DNA of 64,000 nt, from assembly GCF_029227855.1 (NCBI RefSeq), contig NZ_CP074356.1; one strand, 5' to 3'. The stretch is from Escherichia coli. Lineage in GTDB: Bacteria; Pseudomonadota; Gammaproteobacteria; Enterobacterales; Enterobacteriaceae. The position numbers were made by a program. Positions 48,001-51,000 of this stretch are shown one piece after another (position 1 is the first letter of the stretch; each line of letters opens with the position of its first letter).

Positions 48001-51000
48001 GCATAGAAAGCGCCGATAAAATGGTAACCCCTTCTTCTTTAGCCGCTTCAATATACGAAGGTGGAATAGAAAGCAGGCAGCTAAAGACAAAGAACAGTAC
48101 ACTTATGCAGATGATGAGATAAGCGACTTTCATAATTTTTTTGCATTTATCCATAGCATGTTCGCCATATTTTTCACGTCTGTCTATGGCAAACGTAGAA
48201 ATAATGGGCGTATGGCTAAAGGCGAAAACCATCACGGGAATCGATATCCATATCTGGTGAAGGGTATTCTGATTGAACTCTACCTGGGTAGTTAATAGTT
48301 CAGGTTGCCAACTACCGACCAGGTAAATAGAAAGAAATAAGAAATAGGCAATCAATGGGAATACCAAAAATCCCATTACCCGAATAGTGGCATGGCGTCC
48401 CATCAGAAAAATGAGATTCAGGATTAATACAACACCCAGACTCACCAACATACGGATGCGAAGATCAATAACCATATGCTTTGCCAGCTGTTCCGTAAGT
48501 GAGTTGGTAATTGCAACGGCATATATCAACACGACGACAAAAAAGGCGATGAAGTACAGCGTGGTAATCAGATTACCAATCTTCTTGCCATAGTAGTGTG
48601 TTACTGCGCCCGTTATCCCTTCACCTGCTGATGTTTTTGATGAGAGGATGAACTGGCATAAGGCTTTATGTGGCCAATATGTTAAAGGCCAGGCGACCAG
48701 AGCAGTAATAAACAGGACCACAGCCCCTGCCGAACCTAACTGAATAGGAAGGAAGAGCGTGCCTGCACCAACGGCTGTGCCGTAGAGCGCGAAACTCCAC
48801 AGAGTTTCTTCTTTTGACCAAATATTAGACATTATCTGAACGTATCATCTACAAATTAAACAAAATGGAGGGCAATTTACCATAAACCAGGTTAAGTATG
48901 GGAGATTAACGCCCTTTCTACCTCTCTATTGGTGGGTTAGTGGTTGCAAACCTTACGTGCCAGTTATGTCTCTGACTGCTGGTCAGGCGTATTTCCTTTG
49001 TGATAAAAATCACTTTTTTTAAACAATTAAGATAACTGTAATTAACAATCATTTACTATTGCACTGTTAATTGGTGCGAGGTTGTGATGAAAGACGTTGT
49101 GATTGTCGGGGCGTTACGGACACCTATCGGCTGCTTTCGTGGTGCGTTAGCGGGTCATTCCGCTGTGGAACTTGGTAGTCTGGTCGTGAAAGCGTTAATA
49201 GAACGTACCGGTGTTTCTGCATATGCGGTGGATGAAGTGATTCTTGGTCAGGTGTTGACTGCAGGGGCAGGGCAGAATCCGGCAAGGCAATCGGCTATTA
49301 AAGGTGGTCTTCCTAACAGCGTTTCTGCAATCACGATTAATGACGTTTGCGGTTCCGGGCTTAAAGCACTGCATCTGGCTACTCAGGCGATACAGTGTGG
49401 CGAGGCTGATATTGTCATCGCCGGCGGTCAGGAAAACATGAGTCGCGCACCACATGTTCTTACTGATAGCCGCACCGGTGCACAGCTTGGCAATAGCCAG
49501 TTGGTTGATAGTCTTGTGCACGATGGGTTGTGGGATGCCTTCAATGATTATCATATTGGTGTCACCGCCGAAAATCTGGCTCGCGAATATGGCATCAGCC
49601 GTCAGTTGCAGGATGCTTACGCACTTAGCTCGCAACAAAAAGCGCGAGCGGCGATTGACGCCGGACGATTTAAAGATGAGATCGTCCCGGTAATGACCCA
49701 AAGTAACGGTCAGACGTTGGTTGTAGATACCGATGAACAGCCACGCACTGACGCCAGTGCAGAAGGCTTAGCCCGTTTAAATCCTTCATTTGATAGTCTC
49801 GGCTCTGTGACAGCGGGTAATGCATCATCCATAAACGATGGCGCAGCTGCAGTAATGATGATGAGCGAAGCCAAAGCACGAGCGTTGAATTTACCCGTGC
49901 TGGCCCGCATCCGCGCATTTGCCAGCGTTGGTGTAGATCCGGCATTGATGGGAATTGCGCCGGTGTATGCGACCCGCCGTTGCCTGGAGCGTGTTGGCTG
50001 GCAGTTGGCTGATGTCGATCTTATCGAGGCTAATGAAGCGTTTGCTGCACAGGCGCTTTCGGTTGGCAAGATGCTTGAATGGGATGAGCGTCGTGTCAAT
50101 GTCAATGGTGGCGCGATCGCACTCGGTCACCCAATAGGCGCTTCCGGTTGCCGAATCCTCGTTTCTCTGGTTCATGAAATGGTGAAACGTAATGCCCGCA
50201 AAGGACTGGCAACGCTTTGTATCGGCGGGGGCCAGGGCGTGGCATTGACCATTGAACGTGACGAGTAGCTCTGCATTTCCTCCTCACCGATAAATATCTG
50301 CCGTCATTAATCTGTTGAATAATGATGGCTGATGAGTCGACATACCTTTTCAGGACTCCCTGATTTTTCCATTCTCATGGCATATTCGTGATCAACACTG
50401 CACTTTTTTTAATCCTTAACTTAAAAATGAAACAATGTTTTATTTTTAATTGAAAACCCTATCCCGTGGGCATATCATCCCCTTATAGAGAAAACGAAAC
50501 AGCGTTTCACTGTCGTTTTCTATTTTCACGCTTCACTGATTATCGGAGGTTGATGTGGACGTAAGACAGAGCATCCACAGTGCGCATGCAAAAACGCTGG
50601 ATACCCAGGGGCTGCGCAATGAATTTTTGGTTGAAAAAGTATTTATCGCCGATGAGTACACCATGGTTTACAGCCACATTGACCGTATTATTGTTGGCGG
50701 CATTATGCCGGTAACTAAAACGGTTTCCGTTGGCGGGGAAGTTGGTAAACAACTCGGCGTAAGCTATTTCCTGGAACGTCGCGAGTTAGGTGTTATCAAT
50801 ATTGGCGGTGCCGGTACGATTACCGTCGATGGTCAATGCTATGAAATCGGTCACCGCGAAGCCCTGTATGTTGGTAAAGGCGCAAAAGAAGTTGTCTTTG
50901 CCAGTATTGATACCGCTACTCCGGCGAAGTTTTATTACAATTGCGCACCTGCGCATACGACGTATCCCACCAAAAAAGTCACACCGGACGAAGTATCTCC

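What the first reader, a model, noticed from the sequence alone, without database searches (positions are those of the whole stretch)
50425..50520. Two KdgR-type operators upstream of kduI
Seen in sequence: AAATGAAACAATGTTTTATTT (50425-50445) and a second palindrome containing GAAACAGCGTTTC (50491-50520) lie 35-130 bp upstream of kduI. Established knowledge: kduI-kduD belong to the KdgR pectin/hexuronate regulon. This serves as an internal consistency check that regulatory sites can be read here.
Basis: partly seen in the sequence, partly recalled or inferred. Interest (0 to 1): 0.25.

Follow-up and report, generated by a model that had tools for sequence, protein, structure and literature searches.

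The report
Two KdgR-type operators flanking kduI promoter

Summary
AAATGAAACAATGTTTTATTT lies at 50425-50445, and GAAACAGCGTTTC lies at 50496-50508 inside a longer palindrome. Against the published KdgR consensus, and against a PWM built only from other E. coli KdgR boxes, these two 21-mers rank 1 and 2 of about 64,000 positions in the window. About 0.1-0.2 chance sites as good as the weaker one are expected per 64 kb. Both boxes are conserved islands in about 75 of 80 Enterobacteriaceae kduI upstream regions, with centres a fixed 67-68 bp apart. They bracket an invariant sigma-70 promoter (TTGAAA-17-TATCAT, 50450-50478), the same promoter reported for kduI by RNA-polymerase SELEX. Site 1 is therefore centred near -50 and site 2 near +18, both repressor positions. 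Published work shows kduD/kduI derepression when kdgR is deleted. It also shows derepression in a plaR deletion, and PlaR, an IclR-family protein with a near-identical box, binds a probe covering both sites. "KdgR-type" is therefore right, but sequence cannot say which protein uses which box. Site 2 is a weaker, distinct sub-type (CG...CG flanks), and the functional unit is the 21-mer centred at 50502, not the outer palindrome. A conserved CRP-like site lies upstream. Already known; low interest.

The parts
50387..50402 (.). CRP-like site CGTGATCAACACTGCA. It has 4 mismatches to TGTGA-N6-TCACA. Its centre is about -90.5 relative to the predicted transcription start.
   Evidence: The CGTGATC...CA block is invariant in the cross-genus alignment. 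It is found in 75/78 loci at a fixed 40.5-41.5 bp from the centre of site 1. Crp EMSA and 'Crp activation' of kduI are reported in PMC8085971.
50425..50445 (.). Operator O1: near-consensus KdgR/PlaR box AAATGAAACAATGTTTTATTT, centre 50435, about -50.
   Evidence: 27.4 bits, rank 1. The TGAAAC-N3-GTTTTA core is 98-100% conserved in 78 loci. Mean information content is 1.63 bits.
50416..50454 (.). Extended inverted repeat around O1: 19-nt arms, 84% complementary.
50450..50455 (+). -35 hexamer TTGAAA of the kduI sigma-70 promoter.
   Evidence: 10/12 match, 17-nt spacer. Invariant across genera at 2.0 bits. The same TTGAAA-17-TATCAT is reported for kduI by RpoD-holoenzyme SELEX, PMC3946193.
50473..50478 (+). 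-10 hexamer TATCAT. The predicted transcription start is about 50485 (inferred).
   Evidence: TAnnAT is invariant across genera, and the A at 50485 is conserved.
50492..50512 (.). Operator O2: weaker variant box AAACGAAACAGCGTTTCACTG, centre 50502, about +18.
   Evidence: 4 mismatches, second best in the window; 16.5 bits, rank 2. The orthologous consensus is AAACGGAAC-N3-GTTTCGTTA, 67-68 bp from O1 in 74/78 loci. Mean information content is 1.25 bits. The left half and the GTTT core are invariant in Escherichia alleles.
50489..50521 (.). Outer perfect inverted repeat AGAAAACGA / TCGTTTTCT, centre 50505. It is specific to E. coli and probably not a functional unit on its own.
   Evidence: It is not conserved across genera and is broken in many E. 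coli alleles.
50545..50549 (+). Shine-Dalgarno GGAGG of kduI.
   Evidence: Read. Conserved.
50555..51391 (+). kduI (5-dehydro-4-deoxy-D-glucuronate isomerase), GTG start.
51421..52182 (+). kduD, the downstream gene of the regulated unit.

Best explanation
The yqeF-kduI intergenic region carries a sigma-70 promoter for kduI-kduD: -35 TTGAAA at 50450-50455 and -10 TATCAT at 50473-50478. Two IclR-family operator palindromes of the KdgR type bracket it.

O1 (50425-50445) is a near-consensus, presumably high-affinity box that abuts the -35 from upstream, centred at about -50. O2 (50492-50512) is a weaker variant box in the initially transcribed region, centred at about +18.

Without inducer, dimers of KdgR occupy the boxes. 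PlaR/YiaJ reads almost the same sequence and also binds this region. Bound repressor would block RNA polymerase binding or escape. At O1 it probably also blocks the contact between polymerase and the CRP bound further upstream (about -90). When hexuronate or pectin breakdown produces 2-keto-3-deoxygluconate-type metabolites, the repressor leaves the DNA and kduID is transcribed.

Shown here: the presence, statistical significance, conservation and geometry of the boxes and the promoter. Taken from the literature: derepression in kdgR and plaR mutants, PlaR and Crp gel shifts, RNA polymerase binding, and induction by galacturonate and glucuronate. Inferred: the transcription start, which protein occupies which box, the steric mechanism, and the inducer in E. 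coli.
For: Sequence and statistics:
- The boxes are at the stated coordinates.
- They are the best and second-best matches in 64 kb to the published consensus and to an independent PWM.

Geometry:
- A promoter lies between them and is identical to the one reported for kduI in PMC3946193.

Cross-genus footprint, mean information content:
- O1 1.63 bits, -35 2.0, -10 1.43, O2 1.25, against 0.3-0.7 in the spacers.
- O1-O2 spacing is 67/68 bp in 74/78 loci.
- The core symmetry of both boxes is conserved at distances 2-7 from their centres.

Within Escherichia:
- The -35, -10, O1 and the left half of O2 are invariant. Variation falls on the degenerate central triplet and the right flank.
- kdgR is present in 5424/5426 and plaR in 5421/5426 E. 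coli genomes.

Literature:
- KdgR-boxes are noted at kduI.
- kduD mRNA rises in both the kdgR and plaR deletion strains.
- PlaR shifts a kduI probe that spans both boxes.
- kduI and kduD are over-expressed in a deletion that includes kdgR.
- The kduI promoter is induced 7-54 fold by hexuronates.
- Crp binds and activates kduI.
Against: - No direct KdgR-DNA binding experiment on the E. coli kduI region was found in the papers I could read, and the transcription start is predicted, not mapped.
- O2 has 4 mismatches in this window. Across genera it carries a symmetric, conserved departure from the KdgR consensus: C at position 4 in 93% and G at position 18 in 66%. The kdgK, kdgT and tabA boxes do not share this, so it may be read differently or by another protein.
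- The 67-68 bp spacing is about 6.4 helical turns. That is not in phase, and it is far from the 18-22 bp tandem spacing typical of IclR tetramers, so cooperative looping is not supported.
- Shimada 2014 lists the promoter as constitutive, recognised by polymerase alone, so CRP may not be required.
Confidence: 0.85

Rival explanations
1. Only O1 is a genuine KdgR operator. O2 is a separate class of site read preferentially by another IclR-type protein, PlaR/YiaJ or an unidentified one. On this view the two repressors act at different boxes.
For: O2 orthologues have conserved, symmetric CG...CG flanks where O1 and the kdgK/kdgT/tabA boxes have TG...CA. Random decay of a KdgR box would not produce a symmetric conserved change. 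PlaR's strongest operator at yiaK has a GTTTCG right half. PlaR binds the kduI probe and represses kduD.
Against: The other PlaR-shifted probes show no consistent CG...CG signature. The published PlaR box is TG-type. In E. coli itself O2 is CGAAAC...GTTTCA, with A at position 18, and some alleles have only 2 mismatches to the KdgR consensus. An independent KdgR-box PWM still ranks O2 second in the window.
Confidence: 0.12
2. The second palindrome acts as an RNA hairpin in the kduI 5' leader, giving mRNA stabilisation or attenuation, or as a terminator. On this view it is not a protein operator.
For: It lies downstream of the predicted start. A 9+9 nt perfect inverted repeat exists at 50489-50521. 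The consensus scan flagged a terminator-like hairpin on the minus strand at 50514-50498. The leader's minimum-energy fold uses these arms.
Against: The leader's folding energy is not unusual: z = -1.22, and 22 of 200 shuffles fold at least as well. The outer arms are not complementary in other genera (12-63%, near random), while the inner box symmetry is conserved with fixed half-site sequences. The outer arm is broken in many E. coli strains. The terminator-like count is within shuffle expectation: 2 found against 0.4 +/- 0.6, and only 3 G-C pairs. No gene sits upstream on the minus strand for it to terminate.
Confidence: 0.02
3. The palindromes are chance features of an AT-rich intergenic region, or their conservation reflects a small ORF and not protein binding.
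For: The region is AT-rich and was marked as H-NS-associated in PMC3946193. Mechanical ORFs of 21-32 codons overlap the boxes.
Against: Dinucleotide shuffles give 0 sites as good as O1, and 0.085-0.165 as good as O2, per 64 kb. The boxes are conserved at fixed positions in about 75 genera-level lineages while the flanking spacers diverge. The 21-codon ORF varies from 6 to more than 50 codons, and its third codon position is the most conserved: 0.83 against 0.56 for the first.
Confidence: 0.01

Closest known systems
KdgR operators (KdgR-boxes) of the pectin/KDG regulon of Dickeya dadantii and other gamma-proteobacteria. Consensus AAATGAAACAnTGTTTCATTT (Rodionov 2000/2004, as quoted in PMC5559549).
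   Same: A 21-bp AT-flanked palindrome with a TGAAAC-N3-GTTTCA core, placed at the promoter of a KDG-pathway gene. O1 differs from the consensus at one base. It is a repressor-type placement, and the gene is inducible by pectin- or hexuronate-derived sugars.
   Different: The E. coli regulon is small, with no pectinases. O2 is a weaker variant with C at position 4. Direct KdgR binding at this promoter was not found in the accessible literature.
E. coli K-12 KdgR boxes at kdgT, kdgK and tabA (yjgK).
   Same: The same motif family: AAATAAAACAGCGTTTCAATT, TAATGGAACACTGTTTTAATA and AAATGAAACGTTGTTTTAATT. The kdgT box shares the AGCGTTTCA core of this window's O2. All are derepressed in the kdgR deletion strain.
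   Different: In the probes examined, those promoters carry a single good box. kduI carries two, 67 bp apart, on either side of the promoter.
PlaR (YiaJ) box, ATnTGAAACnnnGTTCAnTT as printed, and the yiaK-plaR operator (Shimada 2019, PMC6958661).
   Same: An IclR-family repressor with an almost identical recognition palindrome. The kduI region was recovered by genomic SELEX and shifted in EMSA, and kduD is derepressed in the plaR deletion strain.
   Different: PlaR's principal target is the yiaK operon. Which of O1 or O2 it uses is unknown, because the EMSA probe spans the whole intergenic region.
Tandem operators of tetrameric IclR-family regulators, such as TtgV; centre spacing 18-22 bp (PMC8222616).
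   Same: Multiple palindromic boxes for one regulator family at one promoter. K-12 ygjV shows such a 20-bp tandem. Several genera have a third pseudo-box about 23 bp from O1.
   Different: O1 and O2 are 67-68 bp apart, about 6.4 turns, and lie on opposite sides of the promoter. This is not the tandem tetramer arrangement.

Membership tests
KdgR operator (KdgR-box) | Roughly 21-bp palindrome matching AAATGAAACAnTGTTTCATTT well above background. | tested here: met
   O1 has 1 mismatch and O2 has 4; they rank 1 and 2 of 63,980 positions. Shuffles give 0 and 0.165 such sites per 64 kb. The independent PWM gives 27.4 and 16.5 bits.
KdgR operator (KdgR-box) | Located in the promoter region of a KDG/pectin/hexuronate catabolic gene, at a position compatible with repression. 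| tested here: met
   The boxes lie upstream of kduI-kduD. They flank the TTGAAA-17-TATCAT promoter. Predicted centres are about -50 and +18; the transcription start is inferred, not mapped.
KdgR operator (KdgR-box) | Conserved upstream of orthologous genes in related genomes (phylogenetic footprint). | tested here: met
   O1 is present in about 78/80 loci and O2 in most, at fixed spacing, and both are islands of conservation.
KdgR operator (KdgR-box) | The cognate regulator gene kdgR is present in the genome. | tested here: inconclusive
   kdgR is not in the 64-kb window. It is present in 5424/5426 complete E. coli genomes, so it is almost certainly present in the source genome, but I did not check the source genome itself.
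KdgR operator (KdgR-box) | KdgR protein binds the site and is released by KDG; the target is derepressed in a kdgR mutant. | not testable with these tools
   Literature only. kduD mRNA rises in the kdgR deletion strain (PMC6958661), and kduI/kduD rise in a deletion that includes kdgR (PMC6892915). I found no footprint or EMSA with E. coli KdgR on kduI.
PlaR (YiaJ) box | Match to the PlaR palindrome, with PlaR binding and repression of the target. | tested here: inconclusive
   Both boxes fit the published PlaR consensus as well as they fit the KdgR one. PlaR SELEX, EMSA and Northern data exist for kduI/kduD, but the probe covers both boxes. A comparison of PlaR-shifted probes gave no discriminating signature.
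CRP (cAMP receptor protein) class I site | Match to TGTGA-N6-TCACA at about -61.5, -71.5, -82.5 or -92.5. | tested here: inconclusive
   CGTGATCAACACTGCA has 4 mismatches, which is weak. The left half and the terminal CA are conserved in 75/78 loci at a fixed distance. The centre is about -90.5 from the predicted start.
Intrinsic terminator or structured 5' leader RNA | A stable hairpin, more stable than shuffled sequence, with pairing conserved or covarying across relatives. | tested here: not met
   z = -1.22. The outer arms are not complementary in other genera and are broken in many E. coli strains.
ExuR/UxuR (GntR-type hexuronate) operator | Match to an AATTGGTATACCAATT-type box (pattern recalled from memory, not checked against a source) in the kduI upstream region. 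| tested here: not met
   No match with 3 or fewer mismatches near kduI. The only two hits in the window are at 34009 and 37560, within chance expectation.

The most novel reading that the evidence does not exclude
The two boxes are not equivalent. O2's conserved, symmetric CG...CG variant (AAACGGAAC-N3-GTTTCGTTA across Enterobacteriaceae) may be a distinct operator class read preferentially by PlaR/YiaJ, or read by KdgR with a deliberately different affinity. kduID would then integrate two related IclR-family repressors, or two thresholds, at separate operators on either side of its promoter. The polymorphism of O2 within E. coli would then tune expression between lineages.
Probability: 0.12. 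Interest if true: 0.35.

Novelty: already known. Interest (0 to 1): 0.1.

Why it matters
The whole control region of kduID can be laid out from sequence plus comparative data: a CRP-like site, O1, -35, -10, O2 and the Shine-Dalgarno sequence. It adds little new biology, because KdgR boxes at E. coli kduI and KdgR/PlaR control of kduID are already published. The modest added value is the explicit geometry (boxes bracketing the promoter at a fixed 67-68 bp), the observation that O2 is a conserved variant sub-type, and the natural operator polymorphism within E. coli. These could guide a simple experiment to separate the KdgR and PlaR roles.

Tried and rejected
1. RNA hairpin, attenuator or terminator at the second palindrome. 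Rejected: fold z = -1.22, arms not conserved, and the terminator-like count is within shuffle expectation.
2. Small-ORF coding as the cause of conservation. Rejected: the 21-codon ORF at 50388-50453 varies in length and its third codon position is the most conserved. The 23-aa minus-strand ORF at 50307-50378 does not overlap the boxes.
3. ExuR/UxuR operator as an alternative hexuronate control. No box near kduI.
4. Cra. Its box has no 3-nt spacer between half-sites, so it does not fit; this was judged by reading the sequence. kduI is listed under Crp, not Cra, in the Table 1 excerpt of PMC8085971.
5. Assigning O2 to PlaR by comparing all the PlaR-shifted probes of Shimada 2019. No discriminating pattern emerged, and two primer pairs could not be located in the fetched K-12 loci.
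6. Rodionov 2004, the original KdgR regulon paper, is not held in the library. The supplement of PMC8085971 with the predicted Crp site is not held either.
7. A consensus scan found no box with 6 or fewer mismatches in the edd-eda, yiaK-plaR or kdgR upstream stretches that I scanned.
8. A search for genome-wide KdgR binding data (ChIP-exo or DAP-seq) found nothing specific.
9. Cooperative looping between O1 and O2. Not supported by helical phasing: 67-68 bp is about 6.4 turns.

Full report
**Context.** The window around the finding is the E. coli yqeG(-) / yqeF(+) / kduI(+) / kduD(+) / araE-like(+) region. RefSeq annotation of matching genomes confirms this. kduI starts with GTG at 50555, and yqeF ends at 50268, which leaves a 286-bp intergenic region. 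That region is 100% identical to only one of 5,426 complete E. coli genomes (strain JNEC-KY178) and about 94.5% identical to most others, including K-12.

**Observation.**
- AAATGAAACAATGTTTTATTT occupies 50425-50445. It sits inside a 19+19 nt inverted repeat.
- GAAACAGCGTTTC occupies 50496-50508 and is the only GAAAC-N3-GTTTC in 64 kb, where 0.07 is expected.
- It sits inside a perfect 9+9 nt inverted repeat, AGAAAACGA / TCGTTTTCT, at 50489-50521.
- The inner and outer palindromes have different centres, 50502 and 50505. The KdgR-like 21-mer is 50492-50512.

**Significance.** The pattern I used, AAATGAAACAnTGTTTCATTT, is the published D. dadantii KdgR consensus (Rodionov 2000/2004, as quoted in PMC5559549).
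- Site 1 has 1 mismatch and site 2 has 4. They are the two best of all 63,980 21-mers in the window.
- Dinucleotide-preserving shuffles give 0 sites as good as site 1, and 0.165 sites with 4 or fewer mismatches, per 64 kb.
- For a PWM independent of kduI, I located the boxes of K-12 kdgK, kdgT and tabA and symmetrised them. Site 1 scores 27.4 bits (rank 1) and site 2 scores 16.5 bits (rank 2). Shuffles reach the site 2 score 0.085 times per 64 kb.
- The K-12 allele of site 2 scores 20.0 bits.

**Promoter and geometry.** A consensus scan finds one sigma-70-like promoter in the region, TTGAAA-17-TATCAT at 50450-50478, a 10/12 match. The same hexamers and spacing are listed for kduI in the RpoD-holoenzyme genomic SELEX study of Shimada et al. 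2014 (PMC3946193). With the start inferred near 50485, O1 is centred at about -50, abutting the -35 from upstream, and O2 at about +18. Both are repressor-type positions.

**Phylogenetic footprint.** I fetched 80 kduI loci from distinct Enterobacteriaceae species.
- A box orthologous to O1 lies 103-127 bp upstream of the start codon in about 78 of them. A box orthologous to O2 lies at 43-60 bp in most.
- In an alignment of 80 upstream regions, mean information content is 1.63 bits for O1, 2.0 for the -35, 1.43 for the -10 (TAnnAT invariant), 1.25 for O2 and 1.33 for the Shine-Dalgarno/start region. The spacers are only 0.3-0.7.
- O1-O2 spacing is 67 bp in 52 loci and 68 bp in 22 loci of 78.
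- Core symmetry is conserved in both boxes at distances 2-7 from the centre.
- The outer palindrome centred at 50505 is not conserved and is broken in many E. coli strains.

**The two boxes differ.**
- O1 orthologues are TGAAAC-N3-GTTTTA, 98-100% invariant, including a conserved T at position 17 where the consensus has C.
- O2 orthologues are CGGAAC-N3-GTTTCG, with C at position 4 in 93% and G at position 18 in 66%. This is a symmetric, conserved departure that the kdgK, kdgT and tabA boxes do not share.
- Within Escherichia, the -35, the -10, the left half of O2 and the GTTT core are invariant. O1 differs only at its central degenerate position, apart from one lineage noted below. Variation falls on the central triplet of O2 and its right flank.
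- The window's O2 allele carries C at position 12, like the kdgT box, where K-12 has T. Some strains have an O2 with only 2 mismatches.
- The exact 45-mer around O2 occurs in only 1 of 5,426 genomes, and 783 genomes differ at 5 or more positions.

**Which protein.** kdgR is present in 5424/5426 and plaR (yiaJ) in 5421/5426 E. coli genomes.
- Shimada et al. 2019 (PMC6958661) report that PlaR, an IclR-family regulator, recognises ATnTGAAACnnnGTTCAnTT.
- They recovered kduI by genomic SELEX, and PlaR shifted a kduI probe. The primers of that probe span the whole intergenic region.
- kduD mRNA rises in both the plaR and kdgR deletion strains. The authors note the KdgR-box at these genes, citing Rodionov 2000/2004.
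- Sastry et al. 2019 saw kduI and kduD over-expressed in a deletion that includes kdgR.
- Rothe et al. 2013 showed 7-54 fold induction of the kduI promoter by galacturonate and glucuronate.
- I compared all the PlaR-shifted probes I could locate in K-12 and found no signature that would assign O2 to PlaR.

"KdgR-type operators" is therefore supported, but occupancy by KdgR, PlaR or both at each box cannot be resolved from sequence.

**Rivals.**
- *RNA hairpin or terminator at site 2.* The leader fold is unremarkable (z = -1.22) and the arms are not conserved.
- *Coding.* The overlapping 21-codon ORF varies in length, and its third codon position is the most conserved.
- *ExuR/UxuR.* No box near kduI.
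- *Chance.* Excluded by the shuffles and the conservation.
- *Cooperative looping between O1 and O2.* Not favoured, because 67-68 bp is about 6.4 helical turns and IclR tandem sites are typically 18-22 bp apart.

**Additional element.** A block CGTGATC...CA at 50387-50402 is invariant across genera and sits at a fixed 40.5-41.5 bp from the centre of O1 in 75/78 loci. It is a weak match to the CRP consensus in this window (4 mismatches), centred at about -90.5. A 2021 study lists kduI as a Crp-activated target validated by EMSA (PMC8085971). Placing O1 between this site and the -35 suggests that the bound repressor also blocks CRP-dependent activation. This is inference.

**Verdict.** The feature is an ordinary, previously described repressor-operator arrangement, so I rate it already known and of low interest. 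The only mildly open point is whether the conserved O2 sub-type reflects a division of labour between KdgR and PlaR.

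Noticed in passing
window 50387-50402: A conserved CRP-like site, CGTGATCAACACTGCA. The left half and the terminal CA are invariant in 75/78 Enterobacteriaceae loci at a fixed distance from O1. The literature reports Crp EMSA and activation of kduI (PMC8085971).
   Followed up: partly
window 50447-50467; e.g. L015, L021, L034, L061 at about -94 from the kduI start: Many genera have a third pseudo-box, AATTGAAAAC-N3-(G/A)TTTCA, overlapping the -35 and about 23 bp downstream of O1. That spacing resembles IclR tandem sites. In E. coli the right half has decayed and only the -35 part remains.
   Followed up: partly
window 50307-50378 (- strand): A 23-aa ORF, MRMEKSGSPEKVCRLISHHYSTD, in the yqeF-kduI intergenic region. 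It has the same length and kind of location as the microprotein NC_008253.1_ORF.30477, which AlphaFold-Multimer predicted to bind KduI (PMC11188072). I did not verify that they are the same. It does not overlap the operators.
   Followed up: partly
window 50296-50333 and 50350-50363: A 17-nt-arm inverted repeat just after the yqeF stop, and a terminator-like hairpin, TCAGGACTCCCTGA followed by a T-run. These are probably yqeF terminators that insulate the kduI promoter.
   Followed up: no
L003:1-560: A metagenome bin labelled Deltaproteobacteria carries an E. coli-like kduI (99% aa identity). Everything upstream of -20, including both operators and the promoter, is replaced by 540 bp with no match in 5,426 E. 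coli genomes. This is either a chimeric assembly or an insertion.
   Followed up: partly
E. coli D53-1, NZ_CM161506.1 957743-957853 (hit H12): Only 38% of the intergenic query matches in this strain, which suggests the kduI control region is interrupted or rearranged.
   Followed up: no
L093 (E. coli MFDS1019527), position equivalent to window 50433: The O1 allele is AAATGAAATATTGTTTTATTT, with C9 changed to T. That position is 100% conserved across genera, so this may be a natural operator-down variant. About 98 genomes fall in the 90-95% identity band for this segment.
   Followed up: partly
window 50269-50560: The window's intergenic allele is rare. It is exact in 1 of 5,426 complete E. coli genomes (JNEC-KY178) and about 94.5% identical to most. 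The O2 region is unusually polymorphic within the species: 783 genomes have 5 or more differences in 45 nt.
   Followed up: partly
window 58639-58659: The third-best hit of the independent KdgR-box PWM, TATTAAAACCCCTTTTGATTT at 14.7 bits. It lies in the long intergenic region between a 343-aa ORF (57049-58080, -) and a 719-aa ORF (59377-61536, +). It is probably chance.
   Followed up: no
L095:5769-5809 (K-12 ygjV upstream): Two KdgR/PlaR-like boxes with centres 20 bp apart, AAAGCAAACGGCGCTTCACAT and TTATGAAACGCCGTTTTTTAT. This is the classic IclR tandem arrangement and contrasts with the 67-bp split at kduI.
   Followed up: no
window 50441 (position 17 of O1): O1 keeps a T at position 17, giving the right half GTTTTA, in 98% of orthologues, although the consensus C would make a better palindrome. 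This is a conserved asymmetry of unknown meaning. It could reflect a tuned affinity or an overlap with the T-rich stretch upstream of the -35.
   Followed up: no
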